Below, in pieces: positions 1-14,609 of a DNA stretch of 14,609 bases. Position 1 is the stretch's first letter, and every line of letters begins with the position of its first letter. The stretch covers positions 1 through 14,609 of the forward strand of contig JAEOTC010000211.1 in NCBI GenBank assembly GCA_016840035.1, in the 5' to 3' direction. The notes below the pieces were generated by a model, which ran no database searches, had not been told where the DNA came from, and was given only the letters and a program-made list of their open reading frames with translations. The position numbers were made by a program, and so were the translations under genes. The stretch comes from Candidatus Hodarchaeota archaeon (GTDB taxonomy: Archaea > Asgardarchaeota > Heimdallarchaeia > Hodarchaeales > Hodarchaeaceae).

Positions 1-1875
1 AAACCGTACTTGACTCCCATATATGCCTATAACCTCAACGGTAGTATTTAACATTGAATATTGGTATGCCGATTCACGAAATAAATGCTCGAGGACAAGA
101 TTATCTCCTACATCAACATCTAGCTCGGTAGCTGTTTTTCTAGAGATAATAAGCCCGGGATGGTCTGGACTATTATCGATATCCCCTTCACTAAGCTCTG
201 GGGACCAAATCTCATTTTCCAGATCAAGAAAATGGATACTAAGGGTGAAAGAGTCTTCAGTCCCAATGATTTTTCCAGGAATTTCTATTGCTGGAACTGA
301 TTTTGCAATTTTTGAATTTCCAGTAATGTTGTTAATGACTTCTGAGGTTTCATTATAGAAGTCGTTCAATCCAACATGTAATCTATCAGGAGAATTTCCT
401 TCCATTATGGTTTGCTCCACATCTAATAAGTGTGCACCACCATCAAGTAGAGCAAGAATTGCGATAAGGACAGATAGTGATAATGCCACTCCCATGACTG
501 TTGAAAAAGTCCGTCGAGGATTACGTGCAAAATTGCGAAAGGGAAGTTGTAAGAAAATTGAACCTGGAAAATGAATTCGCTCGAGTAGAGGAGCAGCACC
601 TTTTCCAGTTGATAATGTATACCCTGTTTGAATTGCTTCAATAGGTCTGACTCGTGTAGCACGAATGATTGGGATCACTGTGGCAGAAAAAGGAATTATT
701 ACTCCCAGTAACGCACCTTGGATGAAAAGATCGACAACCAACCACTCTTTCCAAACTGGAAAGGGAATAACATCTGCTAGGACTGATCCAAGTCTCTCTC
801 CTAGAAATTGGGAAAGGAGGAATCCAAAAAACACTCCTCCAAGAGCAATCTCGAGAGAGAAGATCAGATAGCGAATCGCAAATTGAAATGGGGGAGCGCC
901 TAGAGCCATATTAATTCCAATTTGACGTCGATGAGAATTAATTACCCGAGAAACTAAATTAAATGTACCAAAAGCGGCAGCCAGAAGAATTAGAAATGAG
1001 ATGATAAAATACATCTGTTGATCATTAGGAATATCCTCTTTTTGGATTCTGTATGCTGGATAATCATCCTTTTCAGTAAATTTCACATCTATTGTTGGAA
1101 AGTATGTACTGAATGCATCAGTAATCTCATCCTGTAAGATTTGAAGGTTGGTATCTGAAGATAACAGAAATAATGCCTCATTCACATAACCGAAAGGTAA
1201 TCCAACCTGATAATGGAGAATCTGTTGTGCAGTCTCAATTGGAATAAACAAACCACAAAAGACTGACTCTGCTTTTACTGCATTCCCTTCAATTACCATA
1301 AAATACTCTGGACTTAGTCCAGTTCCCACACATGATAGGTTGATCCCTCCTGGAAGTATCAAATTCCGATTTTCAGGAATAACATTATAGTATTGTGCAA
1401 AATTATATTCCGCAATACATACAGATGCATTTGTCTCAGAAGAGTTAATATGTCTTCCATCAATTACCTCTATCCCGTTTACCTTCAAATTCTGTGATCC
1501 TGAAGTTACATTTATTCCAATAATTCTTCCATTCACTAAAATCGTTTGATTCGCGGTTGAGGCATTGACAGAAATTGGAAAAACAACTCTAAATTCAATT
1601 TCCTCTAGCCATTCCGCATGAGAAAGATTATCTAATGCAGTCTGAAATTGAGTTTGATTTATCCAGCTGCCAGGAGCTAATTCCACCTTTAGATCAAACA
1701 TATGCAGTTTTTCATTGCTTTGGTCGAAAGCATACTGCCTCCATTCTGTAGTCCCACTTAGCCCCACGTAAGCACCAGTCCCAAGTCCAATGATTAATGA
1801 TAAAGCTAGAACTTGGAACTTCCGTTCACGCAAGTCTCGGATTGACCAGCGTAGTAAAAACGTTAATTGTGCCAC
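1..1875 (-). CDS. FtsX/MacB-family ABC transporter permease with duplicated halves; 3'-partial (runs off window start)
   Basis: Hand translation from GTG at 1875 (GGTGA SD-like motif just upstream): MAQLTFLLRWSIRDLRERKFQVLALSLIIGLGTGAYVG..., a large extracytoplasmic domain, the FtsX-type motif 'SHRRQIGINMALG', and a second-half start 'FRNFARNPRRTFSTVMGVAL'. No stop found in the stretches translated, including 1-540. Starts 4 bp after the ATPase stop. Confidence 0.9.
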   Translation of the reverse strand, partial: MAQLTFLLRWSIRDLRERKFQVLALSLIIGLGTGAYVGLSGTTEWRQYAFDQSNEKLHMFDLKVELAPGSWINQTQFQTALDNLSHAEWLEEIEFRVVFPISVNASTANQTILVNGRIIGINVTSGSQNLKVNGIEVIDGRHINSSETNASVCIAEYNFAQYYNVIPENRNLILPGGINLSCVGTGLSPEYFMVIEGNAVKAESVFCGLFIPIETAQQILHYQVGLPFGYVNEALFLLSSDTNLQILQDEITDAFSTYFPTIDVKFTEKDDYPAYRIQKEDIPNDQQMYFIISFLILLAAAFGTFNLVSRVINSHRRQIGINMALGAPPFQFAIRYLIFSLEIALGGVFFGFLLSQFLGERLGSVLADVIPFPVWKEWLVVDLFIQGALLGVIIPFSATVIPIIRATRVRPIEAIQTGYTLSTGKGAAPLLERIHFPGSIFLQLPFRNFARNPRRTFSTVMGVALSLSVLIAILALLDGGAHLLDVEQTIMEGNSPDRLHVGLNDFYNETSEVINNITGNSKIAKSVPAIEIPGKIIGTEDSFTLSIHFLDLENEIWSPELSEGDIDNSPDHPGLIISRKTATELDVDVGDNLVLEHLFRESAYQYSMLNTTVEVIGIYGSQVRF

Positions 1876-10949: not shown

Positions 10950-13103
10950 TTGGTAAAACTGAATATAAAAACGTATTTTAGTTTAATACTCATCATGGTG
11001 AGTATTCTTACTTATATAAATATTAATCAATCCAGTAGTTTTGTTACTATTGAAAGTGCTAGTGCAATGCCAATGGAAACGTCAATTCAGTCGGAAGATC
11101 TCGTAATTGACATATCTAGAAATTCTACTGCCATTGGACCAAACTCTGTAATTGAGTTCTCTGTTGAGCTTACAAATAGCTTATCTGAATCGCTCTATGA
11201 TATCTCTGCGAATGTAACTGACATTTCAGATGGTTTAAATCTTATACCTGACATAGAACCCCTATTTGAAGTGTCATCTCTAGATCCTGACACCTCAGCT
11301 GACTTTCAATTTGTAGCGAAATACCTAGGGAACACATCTTCCTCAACAGTTGACGTTGTATTAATGATTGACGCAAGTGGGAGTATGCAAGAAGAAATAG
11401 ATGCTGTTAAAGCAGAATTAAATGACTTAATTGCCAATCTTACCAGTAGTATACCTGATCTTAGGATGGGTGTGATTGTATTTGGTTGGATGGAATATGA
11501 CGAATATCCAACAGTAGACCCCCGAAATTACGTTGAATTAACAAACGACTATGAGAGTGTTAAGAGCTTAATTAACTCCTTAAACGCTCGTGGAGGGATA
11601 GAACCATGGGGTGATGCCTTGTATCTTGCAAACAGCTGGAATTGGCGTGAAGAAGCTGCAAAGCTAATTGTATTAGTAGGTGATGAGGATTGTGACCCTG
11701 GAATCTACGTTGGAACTGAAATGCTTGAGTCTGATCCCAATGGGTATTATAATGGTTCTGATCTGTTGAATATTGTTACAACTCTTCAGAGTAAGGAGGT
11801 TATTATCAGTACAGTCATTTGTGGAGGCGCAACAGAATTAACGGTAGGACAATTCGAATGGATTGCAGAACACACCGAGGGTACTTCTGTATATTTACCA
11901 GATTTAGAACTAGAAGGAATAAGTTTACCAAGGATTATCGAAGAATGGACCCTTGAACTTGGCCGAGAGTTATACCTATCATTTAACCTAACTGCTTATT
12001 GGAGAGATGATGGAAATAATGAGTTTTTCAATTCTAAGGTTGAGTCTTTTTGGTTAGACTTTGCACCTCCTTCAGTAATCATCTCTAAAACCATCACACC
12101 CACTGGTATTGACGTTTTCTCTCTAGATTTTTACATTACAGTCGAAGATATCTCTCCGATCGGTTCGGTTACCTTCTTTCACGATTCACATGGGACGATT
12201 AAATCTGAAGTTCTTACTCCTATCGTAAATACATCTATTTATTTCTTCACACTTCAAGATCTCTCTGGAGGGTTAAATGTATCATATTTTGTGAAGAGCT
12301 CAGATGTTCTTAGAAATTCCGCATTTACACCCATTTTTTGGACTATCGTGGAACCAAAAGTTGATAGTTTCGGAGAAGAAGTGACTTTTGTCGTTGAGAT
12401 AAATAAAACCTTATTTTCAAACATAAAAATCGAATACGGAGGTTTATATCACTTTATACTATCTGGGGTTTCAAGCTTAGACCAGATAGAAATGCAACTG
12501 AATGCACGCGCTACTAATAACACCGTAAACCCAACTCAAACTAAATATATGGAAATTAGCACTTCACTTGATCATAAAATTTTCCTGTTCGATTTAGCAG
12601 CTGATACTTATGCAATCACTTTAAATATTCCATCATTATTAGCAAATAAATCTCTCTCGTATGTTTGGTTAAATCTGATACAACCAAGTGGAACTAGATT
12701 TTCTGGTACCATGAATGACCTCATTCGCGTTTATGGATTGGAATGGTCTGCTGCAAATGGGACATATTTGAGTTTTGATAATCCACCAAGCTCTCCTCTA
12801 GTCCTAAGAGCAGAAGTGTATAATAGCGAATGGGAGCTCGTTTCCATATTTAATGTTGGAGGAAGTCATCAAATCAATGGAACTGGAACCTACTATGTTT
12901 TAATCTGGGCAACATTACGTCAAGGAGATTTTATTGTTCAACTAACCGAGGAAACACCCTTTACAACGGACGATCCATATTATACCTACACCAATCCTCC
13001 CAACGCTACTGGAGCAGGGTTTACAGAAGCATTTGCCATATTATTTTCTACTTTGATAACACTTAGTATTCTAACGAGAAAAAAACGGAAAAATCGGGAA
13101 TAA
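10950..13103 (+). CDS. Cell-surface vWA (MIDAS) protein with Ig-like/beta-sandwich stalk and C-terminal membrane anchor
   Basis: N-terminal signal peptide; DVVLMIDASGSM, GGIEPWGDAL, WREEAAKLIVLVGDE; beta-rich C-terminal modules; ends AGF + TM + RKKRKNRE. TTG start. Confidence 0.9.
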   Translation: MVKLNIKTYFSLILIMVSILTYININQSSSFVTIESASAMPMETSIQSEDLVIDISRNSTAIGPNSVIEFSVELTNSLSESLYDISANVTDISDGLNLIPDIEPLFEVSSLDPDTSADFQFVAKYLGNTSSSTVDVVLMIDASGSMQEEIDAVKAELNDLIANLTSSIPDLRMGVIVFGWMEYDEYPTVDPRNYVELTNDYESVKSLINSLNARGGIEPWGDALYLANSWNWREEAAKLIVLVGDEDCDPGIYVGTEMLESDPNGYYNGSDLLNIVTTLQSKEVIISTVICGGATELTVGQFEWIAEHTEGTSVYLPDLELEGISLPRIIEEWTLELGRELYLSFNLTAYWRDDGNNEFFNSKVESFWLDFAPPSVIISKTITPTGIDVFSLDFYITVEDISPIGSVTFFHDSHGTIKSEVLTPIVNTSIYFFTLQDLSGGLNVSYFVKSSDVLRNSAFTPIFWTIVEPKVDSFGEEVTFVVEINKTLFSNIKIEYGGLYHFILSGVSSLDQIEMQLNARATNNTVNPTQTKYMEISTSLDHKIFLFDLAADTYAITLNIPSLLANKSLSYVWLNLIQPSGTRFSGTMNDLIRVYGLEWSAANGTYLSFDNPPSSPLVLRAEVYNSEWELVSIFNVGGSHQINGTGTYYVLIWATLRQGDFIVQLTEETPFTTDDPYYTYTNPPNATGAGFTEAFAILFSTLITLSILTRKKRKNRE

Positions 13104-13148
13104 CACGTTTTAAACAAGAAGCTGTTGAATCTGGTCAGAGGAATCAAT

Positions 13149-14609
13149 ATGAAAAACAAATTATTTACCATTGTTCTTGCAACTATTATTATCAGTCTTA
13201 GCATACATATTTTAAATTTCAATGATGGGATTGAGCAAGAAAGGGCCATCAATCATGAAAGCCTAGCAGAAAAGGTAATACAGGACGATTTTATATCTCA
13301 GATTTTCACTGGACACAGTTCAGAAGTGTGGGATGTAAAATTCTCCCCGGATGGCAAATTATTAGCCTCGGCTTCCTCTGATAATACAATTTTAATCTGG
13401 AATGTTAGCACAGGTGCAATTTATCGCAATCTTACAGGCCATCTTGATTCCGTCTATTCTTTATCGTTTCACCCCTATGATTCAGTACTGGCCTCAGGAT
13501 CTTTTGATCAGACAATAATTATGTGGAATCTTACTACTGGGGAGAAAATGTATAATCTGACTGGACACACAGCTTCTATTTGGTCACTAGAGTTTAGCCA
13601 AGATGGAACTTTTCTGGCATCAGGTTCTGGAGATTCAACTGTGCGAATTTGGGATTACAATACATCAAACTCAGTTTTAAATCTCACAGGACATACAGAA
13701 GCAGTTAGATCGCTTCATTTTCTTCCTTCAGGAATATTAGCATCTGGTTCATATGATGATAGTATTTTACTATGGAACATAACATCTGGTACCCTAGAAA
13801 CAATTCTTTCTAATAATACTGATAATATCCTTACTCTTACTGCTGATCCCTCTGGGATTATATTAGTATCAGGATCACAAGACAATTTGCTTGAATTTTG
13901 GGACTTATCGCAATATGGATTTAGAACTAGAAATCCGATTTCAACGAGTGATTGGATTCGTGCAGTAGCTTATAGTCCCAATAGTTACTTTCTTGCCTCA
14001 GGATTACAAGATGCAAACATTGACATTTGGCATGGAATATCTGGTTATCATATCAAAACTCTTACAGGGCATACCCAATCTATTCGTGGCTTGGATTTTC
14101 ATCCCACAGAACCAGTACTTGCTTCTGCTTCAGGAGATAGAAGTATAAGGCTTTGGAATGTAACTGATTTAGATAATGATCAAATTCCTGATTATTGGGA
14201 AATTGAGAACGGATTAAGCCCCCAAGATGAGAATGACGGAACTAGTGATCCAGATGGGGATGGTTTAACAAATTTTAATGAATTTAAGTTTGGAACAGAT
14301 CCACGAGTATTCGATACAGACCTAGATCAAATATCTGATTATTACGAATTCATTTATGGTATGAATGGTAACCTTAACGATGCAGATGGAGATATTGATG
14401 AGGATGGGATGCCAAATCTCTATGAATATCTCAATAATTTGAATTCTGCATTAAATGATACAGCTCTAGATTCAGATTCTGATGGAATGCCTAACTTGTT
14501 TGAGTATGAAAATGGTCTTCAGGCTGGAAAGGACGATGCGAATGATGATTTAGACAATGATGGGATGTCTAATATTTTTGAGTATCGATTTAATTTTATT
14601 ATTGGGATT
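13149..14609 (+). CDS. Secreted 7-repeat WD40 beta-propeller protein followed by TSP3-like DxDxDG Ca-binding repeats; 3'-partial
   Basis: Hand translation from ATG 13149: MKNKLFTIVLATIIISLSIHIL (signal/anchor), seven WD40 units (e.g. GHSSEVWDVKFSPDGKLLASASSDNTILIWN), then DLDNDQIPDYWE, DPDGDGLTNFNE, etc. Open to the window end. Confidence 0.92.
   Translation, partial: MKNKLFTIVLATIIISLSIHILNFNDGIEQERAINHESLAEKVIQDDFISQIFTGHSSEVWDVKFSPDGKLLASASSDNTILIWNVSTGAIYRNLTGHLDSVYSLSFHPYDSVLASGSFDQTIIMWNLTTGEKMYNLTGHTASIWSLEFSQDGTFLASGSGDSTVRIWDYNTSNSVLNLTGHTEAVRSLHFLPSGILASGSYDDSILLWNITSGTLETILSNNTDNILTLTADPSGIILVSGSQDNLLEFWDLSQYGFRTRNPISTSDWIRAVAYSPNSYFLASGLQDANIDIWHGISGYHIKTLTGHTQSIRGLDFHPTEPVLASASGDRSIRLWNVTDLDNDQIPDYWEIENGLSPQDENDGTSDPDGDGLTNFNEFKFGTDPRVFDTDLDQISDYYEFIYGMNGNLNDADGDIDEDGMPNLYEYLNNLNSALNDTALDSDSDGMPNLFEYENGLQAGKDDANDDLDNDGMSNIFEYRFNFIIGI
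13311..14159 (+). repeat. Seven WD40 repeats (coding)
   Basis: GH...LASxSxD.TI.IW[N/D] units of about 42 aa; blades 5 and 6 lack the GH dipeptide. Confidence 0.88.
14166..14609 (+). repeat. At least six acidic DxDxD[GQ]xx[DN]xxE repeats (bacterial TSP3-like, coding)
   Basis: DLDNDQIPDYWE, DPDGDGLTNFNE, DTDLDQISDYYE, DIDEDGMPNLYE, DSDSDGMPNLFE, DLDNDGMSNIFE. Confidence 0.85.

What the first reader, a model, noticed from the sequence alone, without database searches (positions are those of the whole stretch)
11094..12060. vWA domain has an integrin-betaI-like motif order and appears inserted inside an Ig-like domain
Seen: VDVVLMIDASGSMQEEI, DLRMGVIVF, VELTND, EPWGDAL, WREEAAKLIVLVGD occur in the same order as the integrin beta1 motifs as I recall them (IDLYYLMDLSYSMKDDL, DFRIGFGSF, LSLT, PEGGFDAI, WRNVTRLLVFSTD), including an acidic pair (EE) at the ADMIDAS-like position. 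Before the vWA is an apparently incomplete CARDB/DUF11-like sandwich (IEFSVELTN...SLDPDTSADFQFVAKY); after it are two strands (LSFNLTAYWRDDGNNEFFNSKVESFWLD) that look like the missing F/G hairpin. Inference: a domain-in-domain topology like the integrin hybrid/betaI unit or pilus tip adhesins such as RrgA, which can couple ligand binding to conformational change. Similar vWA subfamilies exist in bacteria, so motif similarity alone does not show orthology.
Basis: partly seen in the sequence, partly recalled or inferred. Interest (0 to 1): 0.7.

Follow-up and report, generated by a model that had tools for sequence, protein, structure and literature searches.

The report
Asgard vWA head plugged into Ig-fold
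A surface protein of a Heimdall-group (Hodarchaeales-like) Asgard archaeon has a metal-binding vWA domain inserted inside a CARDB-like beta-sandwich, which resembles the integrin beta head in layout only and is not an integrin orthologue.

Summary
Window 10950-13103 (+) encodes a 717-aa type I membrane protein, and every quoted motif is at the stated place. Residues 134-335 are a true vWA domain (Pfam VWA, 6e-10).

Residues 45-128 and 340-370 are predicted to form one beta-sandwich. The two pieces co-fold with ipSAE 0.77, against 0.01 for the best control. Pfam CARDB/DUF11 matches to the N-piece stop at about 70% of the profile, so the last strands are supplied after the vWA.

Foldseek ranks integrin beta chains first, because they share the order sandwich-vWA-sandwich. 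Orthology is not supported:
- Pfam Integrin_beta is below threshold (18.7 bits against 24.8).
- The sandwich alone finds no integrin hybrid domain.
- The insertion point differs (6+2 strands; ITIH1 has 2+6).
- There are no PSI, EGF or tail domains and no NPxY.

The beta-I-like signature (DxSxS, Glu for the MIDAS Thr, an acidic ADMIDAS-like residue) is invariant. It is also common in many non-family vWA domains.

The family was found only in Asgard archaea, mostly the window's own class. In 20 of 24 loci it sits beside a membrane protein, usually with a cytoplasmic RING-like tail.

This scan reached the same reading earlier on other genomes.

The parts
10950..13103 (+). Whole gene: 717-aa type I membrane surface protein (TTG start; 15 N-x-S/T sequons; only 2 Cys)
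   Evidence: About 65 full-length homologues of 700-740 aa. The TTG start aligns with the MKLN... starts of homologues.
10950..11066 (+). N-terminal hydrophobic helix, a probable signal peptide (aa 1-39)
   Evidence: AF2 helix 6-28, followed by a low-confidence linker 29-42. Read from the sequence; the cleavage site is inferred.
11082..11333 (+). N-terminal six strands of a CARDB/DUF11-like beta-sandwich (aa 45-128)
   Evidence: Strands 51-57, 67-76, 82-90, 96-99, 106-111, 116-125. Sub-threshold CARDB in 12/55 members and DUF11 in 9/55, covering only the first ~70% of those profiles. Best PDB match is the GH3 C-terminal Fn3-like domain, E 0.0016.
11349..11954 (+). vWA domain (aa 134-335), inserted in the sandwich
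11370..11384 (+). MIDAS D141-A-S143-G-S145
   Evidence: Invariant in 56 sequences and kept in the divergent sub-family.
11394..11396 (+). E149, an invariant acidic residue at the ADMIDAS-like position. It aligns with the second D of beta-6 SMDDD.
   Evidence: Position 148 is variable.
11601..11603 (+). E218 of the invariant E-P-W-G-D-A-L motif; it occupies the MIDAS loop-2 (Thr) column
   Evidence: In 321 aligned vWA domains this column reads E 126, T 36, D 19. It lies two residues before helix 220-228.
11682..11684 (+). D245, the MIDAS loop-3 Asp, followed by the invariant acidic/Cys cluster E246-D-C248-D249
11967..12059 (+). Post-vWA beta-hairpin (aa 340-370) that completes the N-terminal sandwich
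   Evidence: AF2 strands 340-352/358-370. pLDDT stays at 83-94 even when the downstream domains are removed. It co-folds with aa 45-128: ipSAE 0.77, best control 0.01.
12072..12947 (+). Stalk of about three further beta-sandwich domains (aa 375-666)
   Evidence: AF2 secondary structure and pLDDT. Weak profile match of aa ~397-450 to the Ig-like domain of P. gingivalis peptidylarginine deiminase, E 4e-4.
13017..13100 (+). C-terminal TM helix and short basic tail (…TRKKRKNRE)
   Evidence: AF2 helix 690-716. A TM plus K/R tail is conserved in homologues.
13125..14609 (+). Adjacent gene, cut by the window end: signal/anchor + 7-blade WD40 + thrombospondin-type-3-like DxDxDG repeats. Full-length relatives continue into a TM helix and a cytoplasmic Cys-rich RING-like tail.
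   Evidence: Relatives of 775-803 aa.

Best explanation
The gene encodes an Asgard-specific (mainly Heimdall-class) type I membrane surface protein. Its membrane-distal head is a metal-ion-dependent (MIDAS) vWA domain. The vWA is spliced into a loop of a CARDB/DUF11-like beta-sandwich, with six strands before it and the last two after it. The head sits on about three Ig-like stalk domains, a TM helix and a 7-8 residue basic tail.

The most likely function is ligand capture. An acidic group of a ligand would complete the coordination of a divalent cation held by D141, S143, S145, E218 and D245. E149 and the DEDCD cluster may form adjacent cation sites.

Both ends of the vWA enter one rigid sandwich, and the last helix (326-335) runs straight into strand 340. 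A ligand-induced shift of that helix could therefore re-orient the head on the stalk, as in integrin beta, ITIH1 and pilus tip adhesins. The protein has no cytoplasmic domain, so any signal probably passes through the product of the adjacent gene (ectodomain-TM-RING-like tail).

Shown here: the domain identities, the invariant motifs, the predicted one-sandwich topology, the taxonomic range and the gene adjacency. Inferred: metal and ligand binding, allostery, and pairing with the neighbour.

The module is an architectural analogue of the integrin beta hybrid/beta-I unit, probably assembled independently. It is not an integrin orthologue.
For: Architecture: AF2 models of the whole protein (pLDDT 85.4) and of aa 40-385 (85.8).

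One sandwich from two pieces:
- ESMFold2 co-fold ipSAE 0.77 against 0.01 for the best control. This mark was reached by 58 of 80 solved complexes and 2 of 110 mismatched pairs, and these counts hold only roughly here because my own alignment was used. The three runs agree in at least 95% of contacts and the partner's pLDDT is at least 80.
- CARDB/DUF11 matches to the N-piece are truncated at ~70% of the profile.

vWA domain: Pfam VWA in 55/55 members.

MIDAS set and E149: invariant. The E218 column is the Thr column of other vWA domains.

Layout like integrin beta, PitA and ITIH1:
- Foldseek ranks 1-27 are integrin beta (E 3e-11 to 4e-10, 314-445 columns), PitA is rank 28 and ITIH1 rank 44.
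- VIA aligns ITIH1 over 218 residues (model 11..332) and beta-3 over 243 residues (model 55..332).

Not an orthologue:
- PF00362 scores 18.7 bits against a 24.8 cut-off and matches only its first ~45 positions.
- The N-sandwich profile finds no hybrid domain.
- The split is 6+2 strands, against 2+6 in ITIH1 (PMC7170535).

Range: 44 of 301 Asgard-phylum genomes, concentrated in three families of the window's own class. Named hits are Hodarchaeales, Heimdallarchaeota, Thorarchaeota or Promethearchaeota, plus one labelled Bathyarchaeia.

Neighbour: 20 of 24 non-redundant loci have a directly adjacent bitopic membrane protein. Eighteen of these have CxxC-rich tails, and the 435-aa type matches zf-RING_2 at 27-31 bits.
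Against: - All 3-D evidence is predicted. I could not inspect coordinates, so the geometry of E218 and E149 at the metal sites is inferred from alignment and conservation.
- HMMER's own low-scoring alignment to beta-6 (5.8 bits) places E218 on the Asp of FDAI, not on the MIDAS Glu.
- No ligand is known.
- The paralogue in the same genome and three other loci lack the partner gene.
- Sequence-profile searches still put integrin beta-6 as the best single-domain PDB hit (26 bits, against 23 for BatB). A distant special relationship of the vWA to beta-I is therefore not excluded.
Confidence: 0.68

Rival explanations
1. True homology with integrins. The Asgard head (sandwich plus Glu-MIDAS vWA) is the prokaryotic ancestor or sister of the eukaryotic integrin beta hybrid/beta-I unit, and the adjacent propeller protein is the alpha-like partner.
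For: - Integrin beta chains fill Foldseek ranks 1-27.
- The best single-domain PDB sequence hit is beta-6 beta-I.
- The six-site signature reads D-S-S-E-E-D. From memory of the beta-3 sequence, the equivalent integrin beta sites read D-S-S-D-E-D.
- The HMM alignment to beta-6 runs from the last sandwich strands into the vWA.
- The neighbour is a propeller (WD40 here; FG-GAP-like by a language-model lead in other sub-families).
- The host lineage is Heimdall-class Asgard.
Against: - PF00362 is sub-threshold in P0001 and in the members scanned.
- The sandwich is CARDB-like and on its own finds no hybrid domain.
- The insertion point differs (6+2 strands).
- Under either alignment no side chain stands at the beta-3 SyMBS positions (positions recalled from memory).
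- There are only 2 Cys, no PSI, EGF or beta-tail domains, and no NPxY.
- The same signature occurs in bacterial, nanoarchaeal and protist vWA proteins.
- The propeller type is not conserved between sub-families.
Confidence: 0.1
2. The flanks are not one domain. The N-terminal strands form an autonomous, if small, Ig-like domain, the hairpin belongs to the stalk, and the predicted packing is a modelling artefact.
For: Both predictors are learned models. The family alignment has only 56 sequences. TM-scores to integrin heads are low (0.40-0.46).
Against: - Two different programs agree, and controls with unrelated chains score 0.01.
- The hairpin keeps pLDDT 83-94 when the stalk is deleted.
- The CARDB/DUF11 profiles are matched only up to ~70% by the N-piece, so a C-terminal hairpin is missing from it.
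Confidence: 0.08
3. A generic vWA protein with a non-adhesive role, for example a cytoplasmic chelatase-type or MoxR-partner vWA, as the JGI label 'Mg-chelatase subunit ChlD' on some homologues suggests.
For: Source annotation of P0005 and P0011. BatB-like vWA domains are close in sequence and fold.
Against: - The protein has an N-terminal signal-like helix, a C-terminal TM with a basic tail, 15 sequons and an Ig-like stalk.
- No AAA+/MoxR or ChlI gene stands beside it in any locus examined.
- There is no NCBIfam match.
Confidence: 0.03

Closest known systems
Integrin beta headpiece (beta-I domain inserted in the hybrid domain; e.g. beta-3, beta-6 and beta-8 PDB chains)
   Same: - A vWA is inserted in a loop of a beta-sandwich at the membrane-distal end of a type I membrane protein.
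- It carries DxSxS, an acidic residue at the ADMIDAS-like position, Glu in the MIDAS Thr column, and the loop-3 Asp.
- Integrin beta chains are the top Foldseek hits.
- Beta-3 aligns over 243 residues, including both flanks.
   Different: - PF00362 is below threshold.
- The vWA is compact (~202 aa). I saw no long disulfide-bonded specificity loop and no SyMBS side chains.
- The sandwich is CARDB-like, with the vWA after strand 6 of 8.
- There are only 2 Cys, no PSI, EGF or beta-tail domains, and an 8-residue basic tail without NPxY.
Inter-alpha-inhibitor heavy chain 1 (ITIH1/HC1, PDB 6FPY)
   Different: In ITIH1 two strands precede and six follow the vWFA; here six precede and two follow. ITIH1 is secreted, has a VIT-region sandwich and uses a Thr-type MIDAS. 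The rmsd is 5.2 A.
Gram-positive and Bacteroidota pilus tip adhesins with inserted vWA (PitA 7w6b, SpaC 6m48, RrgA 2ww8, GBS104 3txa, Mfa5 6to1)
   Different: There is no LPXTG sortase signal and no pilin polymerisation context. The protein is anchored by its own TM helix, and the host is archaeal.
Uncharacterised actinobacterial DUF11 + VWA + HYR proteins (ESM Atlas cluster) and PDB 4fx5 (Catenulispora vWA)
   Different: They are bacterial, with different downstream domains (HYR) and no RING-tailed neighbour known. The relationship rests on predicted models only.

Membership tests
vWA superfamily (Pfam PF00092 VWA) | Match to the family HMM above the gathering score | tested here: met
   40.1-43.1 bits against 23.8; matched in 55 of 55 members.
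vWA superfamily (Pfam PF00092 VWA) | Rossmann-like alpha/beta fold with MIDAS residues at the C-terminal ends of beta1 and beta4 and on loop 2 | tested here: met
Integrin beta chain | Pfam Integrin_beta (PF00362) above the gathering score of 24.8 bits | tested here: not met
   17.1-18.7 bits, covering profile positions 5-47 only. 29 of 55 members match at E<=0.1, best E 1.6e-4. Genome-level matches score 12.6 and 12.2 bits.
Integrin beta chain | Glu instead of Thr as MIDAS loop-2 ligand, plus acidic ADMIDAS residues after DxSxS | tested here: inconclusive
   E218 lies in the Thr column and E149 is invariant, but position 148 varies. HMMER's weak alignment to beta-6 shifts E218 by four residues. 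No coordinates could be inspected. The signature is not specific to integrins.
Integrin beta chain | SyMBS/LIMBS side-chain ligands preceding the MIDAS Glu (beta-3 positions recalled from memory) | tested here: not met
   If E218 is set on the integrin MIDAS Glu, the recalled beta-3 SyMBS positions (N215, D217) fall on A213 and the invariant G215. HMMER's alternative register puts the integrin Glu on the variable position 214. Neither register supplies conserved side-chain ligands.
Integrin beta chain | Beta-I inserted in a hybrid domain | tested here: inconclusive
   Insertion in a sandwich is supported. However, the sandwich is CARDB-like, is split 6+2, and on its own finds no hybrid domain by sequence.
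Integrin beta chain | PSI domain, Cys-rich EGF stalk, beta-tail domain, and a cytoplasmic NPxY tail | tested here: not met
   No such Pfam hits. There are 2 Cys in 717 aa, and the tail is TRKKRKNRE.
Integrin beta chain | Obligate heterodimer with a propeller-bearing alpha chain | not tested
   An adjacent WD40-propeller membrane protein exists.
CARDB / DUF11 Ig-like domains (PF07705, PF01345) | HMM match above the gathering score | tested here: inconclusive
   Sub-threshold only: CARDB in 12/55 members (best 19.4 bits against 22.7) and DUF11 in 9/55. The matches cover profile positions 2-72 of 101 and 1-87 of 114.
Sortase-assembled pilus tip adhesins (RrgA/PitA/SpaC) | C-terminal LPXTG sorting signal and a pilus gene-cluster context | tested here: not met
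   There is no LPXTG in the sequence; the C-terminus is a TM helix with a basic tail. The neighbours are not pilins or sortases.
PGF-CTERM archaeosortase substrates | NCBIfam PGF-CTERM model match | tested here: not met
   No NCBIfam family at E<=0.01. 'AGF' precedes the TM here, but the motif is absent in the divergent sub-family.

The most novel reading that the evidence does not exclude
The vWA-in-sandwich protein is the ligand-binding chain of a two-chain Asgard surface receptor. Its partner, encoded next door, has an exchangeable ectodomain (a WD40 propeller with Ca-binding repeats here; FG-GAP-like or other in sister lineages), a TM helix and a cytoplasmic RING finger. Extracellular MIDAS-dependent binding would then be coupled to ubiquitin-type signalling inside an archaeon close to the eukaryotic stem. 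This would be an integrin-like logic, either evolved independently or related to the raw material of eukaryotic adhesion receptors.
Probability: 0.25. Interest if true: 0.85.

Novelty: new variant of a known kind. Interest (0 to 1): 0.6.

Why it matters
vWA domains spliced into Ig-like sandwiches form the working heads of integrins, ITIH proteins and bacterial pilus tips. Having both termini in one sandwich is what lets ligand binding move the rest of those molecules.

This report finds the same design in an uncharacterised, conserved family that so far appears only in Asgard archaea, mostly Heimdall-class. It is built from a different sandwich with a different insertion point, which suggests the layout is a recurrent solution rather than an integrin invention. 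It also gives a concrete surface protein to study in organisms whose cell-cell contacts are central to models of eukaryote origins.

The conserved adjacency to a membrane protein with a RING-like tail makes an outside-to-inside signalling hypothesis directly testable.

Tried and rejected
1. In-frame TGA codons flagged in many sub-family hits suggested selenocysteine near the invariant Cys. Translation showed they are only the flanking stop codons, so this was rejected.

2. Searching PF00362 in 201 Asgard genomes found nothing over the cut-off. The controls rang nowhere either, so this says nothing about absence.

3. phmmer of the whole protein against PDB found no hit.

4. The N-sandwich profile alone did not retrieve the integrin hybrid domain. 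This is an absence at sequence level only.

5. The 'ELSLSFNAT'-like string after the vWA resembles, from my memory of beta-3, the first hybrid strands. It is not conserved in the family consensus, so I treat it as chance.

6. Meheust et al. 2022 (PMC9258230) describe an Asgard 'integrin beta 4-like' family always next to tubulin/FtsZ genes. None of the loci whose neighbours I looked at with Pfam annotation shows such a neighbour. It is probably another family; no accessions were available to check.

7. The ~1005-aa partner type gave nothing in PDB beyond a weak RING hit. Its FG-GAP character rests on a Pfam E of 0.15 and language-model scores of 0.81-0.86, so it is only a lead.

8. A paper on the PitA structure was not in the library.

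Full report
**Observation.** The ORF at window 10950-13103 (+) encodes 717 aa. The finding's coordinates correspond to aa 49-370. Pfam calls a vWA domain at aa 135-296 (6e-10). The protein has an N-terminal hydrophobic helix, 15 N-x-S/T sequons, only two cysteines, a C-terminal TM helix and the tail TRKKRKNRE. It is therefore a type I membrane surface protein.

**Family.** About 65 homologues of 700-740 aa share the whole architecture. Those with names are Hodarchaeales, Heimdallarchaeota, Thorarchaeota or Promethearchaeota MAG proteins, plus one labelled Bathyarchaeia. A second tier found by an exhaustive profile search is again Promethearchaeota where named.

In genomes, the family was found in 44 of 301 Asgard-phylum genomes. 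It is concentrated in three families of the window's own class (11/20, 20/29, 9/11) and was not found in the two largest other families sampled (0/76, 0/68). The window's genome has a second copy at 38% identity.

Invariant residues in 56 sequences include D135, D141, S143, S145, M146, E149, E218, P219, W220, G244, D245, E246, C248 and D249. The motifs D-x-S-G-S-M-x-x-E, E-P-W-G-D-A-L and D-E-x-C-D persist in the most divergent sub-family.

**Topology.** AF2 with the family alignment gives pLDDT 85.4 for the whole protein and 85.8 for aa 40-385. The order of elements is:
- six strands (51-125);
- an 8-residue weak linker;
- the vWA (134-335);
- a four-residue link;
- a long hairpin (340-352/358-370);
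- three further beta domains;
- the TM helix.

The hairpin keeps high confidence when the stalk is removed.

To test the one-sandwich idea directly I gave aa 45-128 and aa 337-373 to the complex predictor as separate chains.
- The score was ipSAE 0.77 (three runs: 0.76-0.79), against 0.01 for the best of three controls.
- This mark was reached by 58 of 80 solved complexes and 2 of 110 mismatched pairs. These counts hold only roughly here, because my own alignment was used.
- The runs agree in at least 95% of contacts, and the partner's pLDDT is at least 80.
- Strand 82-88 pairs with 347-352, and 51-53 packs against 347-363.

This is a model's confidence, not a measurement, but it comes from a second program and the controls fail.

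Independently, sub-threshold CARDB and DUF11 matches to the N-piece stop at profile positions ~72 of 101 and ~87 of 114. This is as expected if the last strands are supplied after the vWA.

**How integrin-like is it?** Foldseek, which rewards a shared linear order of local structure, ranks integrin beta chains 1-27 for the head model (E 3e-11 to 4e-10, 314-445 columns). PitA is rank 28 and ITIH1 rank 44. PitA is rank 1 for the full-length model. TM-scores are only 0.40-0.46, so the domain orientation differs.

|---|---|---|
| TFIIH p44 | 20.2-20.4 | generic vWA |
| 4fx5 | 19.9 | generic vWA |
| ITIH1 | 19.8 | 218 aligned, model 11..332 |
| BatB | 18.8 | generic vWA |
| PitA | 17.8 | |
| Integrin beta-6 | 17.1 | |
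| Integrin beta-8 | 16.9 | |
| Integrin beta-3 | 16.5 | 243 aligned over model 55..332, rmsd 6.6 |

By sequence:
- Pfam Integrin_beta scores 17-18.7 bits (cut-off 24.8) over its first ~45 positions only, and is sub-threshold in the 29 of 55 members that match at all.
- Against PDB, the vWA-only profile puts beta-6 beta-I first among single domains (26.2 bits, positions 2-43), just ahead of BatB (23.3 bits, positions 2-122).
- The sandwich-only profile finds a GH3 Fn3/CARDB-like domain (E 0.0016) and arrestin C-domains, not the hybrid domain.

In ITIH1, which is described as having an integrin-like hybrid domain, two strands precede and six follow the vWFA (PMC7170535). Here the split is six and two. 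There are no PSI, EGF or beta-tail domains and no NPxY tail.

I conclude that the module is integrin-like in layout, that the insertion was probably made independently in a CARDB-type sandwich, and that orthology is not supported.

**Metal-site signature.** The HMM alignment printed for beta-6 matches VDLvliiDaSGSMgeEi to VDLYYLMDLSASMDDDL. E149 therefore stands at the second ADMIDAS Asp.

E218 lies two residues before helix 220-228. I aligned 321 vWA domains from the 150 best representative hits. In that alignment its column reads E 126, T 36, D 19, so it is the MIDAS Thr column. HMMER's own weak second segment (5.8 bits) shifts this by four residues. I could not inspect coordinates, so the assignment rests on conservation and column equivalence.

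The six-site signature D-[ST]-S-E-E-D is frequent outside the family. Examples are:
- an Anoxybacillus Calx-beta protein (Integrin_beta 23.6 bits);
- a metagenomic protein that passes PF00362 (27.1 bits);
- a Nanoarchaeota protein;
- a protist protein (Cantina).

The Glu-type, beta-I-like MIDAS thus marks a broad vWA class, not integrin ancestry. Neither alignment register puts a conserved side chain at the beta-3 SyMBS positions, which I recall from memory. The invariant E246-D-C248-D249 cluster after the MIDAS Asp is specific to this family and unexplained.

**Context.** I examined 24 non-redundant loci, taken from contig look-ups and genome fetches. In 20 of them a bitopic membrane protein is encoded directly 3' of the vWA gene, on the same strand or convergent, usually within 50 bp. 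Its ectodomain varies:

| Partner type | Size | Loci |
|---|---|---|
| WD40 plus DxDxDG repeats (this window's type) | 775-803 aa | 6 |
| No Pfam domain; FG-GAP-like leads only | ~1005 aa | 6 |
| Unknown | ~1555 aa | 2 |
| Unknown | ~435 aa | 6 |

Eighteen of the partners end in a cytoplasmic CxxC-rich tail. In the 435-aa type this tail matches zf-RING_2 at or above threshold (27.3-31.4 bits). In one genome the WD40 part and a double zinc ribbon are separate genes. The paralogue in this genome and three other loci lack such a neighbour.

The vWA protein has essentially no cytoplasmic part. The simplest reading is that it is the ligand-binding chain of a two-chain receptor. Binding between the chains was not tested here.

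**Earlier notes of this scan.** After reaching these conclusions I found that follow-up agents had read the same family on other genomes in the same way. They describe a vWA plugged into an Ig-like fold at a different site than in integrins, beside a RING-tailed membrane receptor. These notes are not independent evidence, but nothing here contradicts them.

**Verdict.** The integrin-specific part is not supported.

The protein is best described as an uncharacterised Asgard MIDAS adhesin or receptor subunit with a vWA-in-CARDB-like-sandwich head. This is a new variant of the 'vWA inserted in an Ig-like domain' design. I found no paper that describes this family.

Noticed in passing
window 13125-14609 (+), cut by the window end; full-length relatives at L001:10206-12545, L015:8126-10453 (-), L016:8133-10493 (-): The neighbour is an externally exposed 7-blade WD40 propeller followed by thrombospondin-type-3-like DxDxDG repeats. 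In full-length relatives a TM helix and a ~230-aa cytoplasmic tail with five CxxC pairs (RING/zinc-ribbon-like) follow. It is 47% identical between lineages whose vWA proteins share about 40%.
   Followed up: partly
24 related loci (L001-L004, L009, L015-L038): The vWA gene keeps a directly adjacent 'ectodomain-TM-tail' gene in 20 of 24 loci, 18 of them with a Cys-rich RING-like tail, while the ectodomain type changes (WD40+TSP3; ~1005 aa FG-GAP-like lead; ~1555 aa; ~435 aa with zf-RING_2 at 27-31 bits). The constant parts are the vWA chain and, in most, the RING tail, not the propeller.
   Followed up: partly
own genome, contig C59:30952-33072 (-) = L009:8947-11088: A second family member (713 aa, 38% identical, all MIDAS residues kept) stands without a partner gene, between an M28 peptidase gene and an asparagine-synthase-like gene.
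   Followed up: partly
L002:9144-11466 (-): In a complete 3.16-Mb relative genome the partner appears split: a 524-aa WD40+DxDxDG protein without TM or tail, and a separate 222-aa double-zinc-ribbon protein between it and the vWA gene.
   Followed up: no
window 11685-11699 (aa 246-250): An invariant E-D-C-D-P cluster stands immediately after the MIDAS Asp. C248 is one of only two cysteines in the protein. This may be an extra metal site and has no counterpart that I know of in integrin beta.
   Followed up: no
L001:15547-18140: Two actin-family genes (389 and 453 aa) lie about 3 kb downstream of the vWA/WD40 pair in the closest relative's contig. This is beyond the end of the present window.
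   Followed up: no
window 13008-13025 (aa ~687-692): 'T-G-A-G-F' directly before the C-terminal TM and basic tail recalls the PGF-CTERM archaeosortase signal. No NCBIfam model matches, and the motif is not kept in the divergent sub-family.
   Followed up: partly
window 11121-11129 (aa 58-60): N58 of the sequon N-S-T in the N-terminal sandwich is invariant across 56 homologues. It is a likely conserved N-glycosylation site on the head.
   Followed up: no
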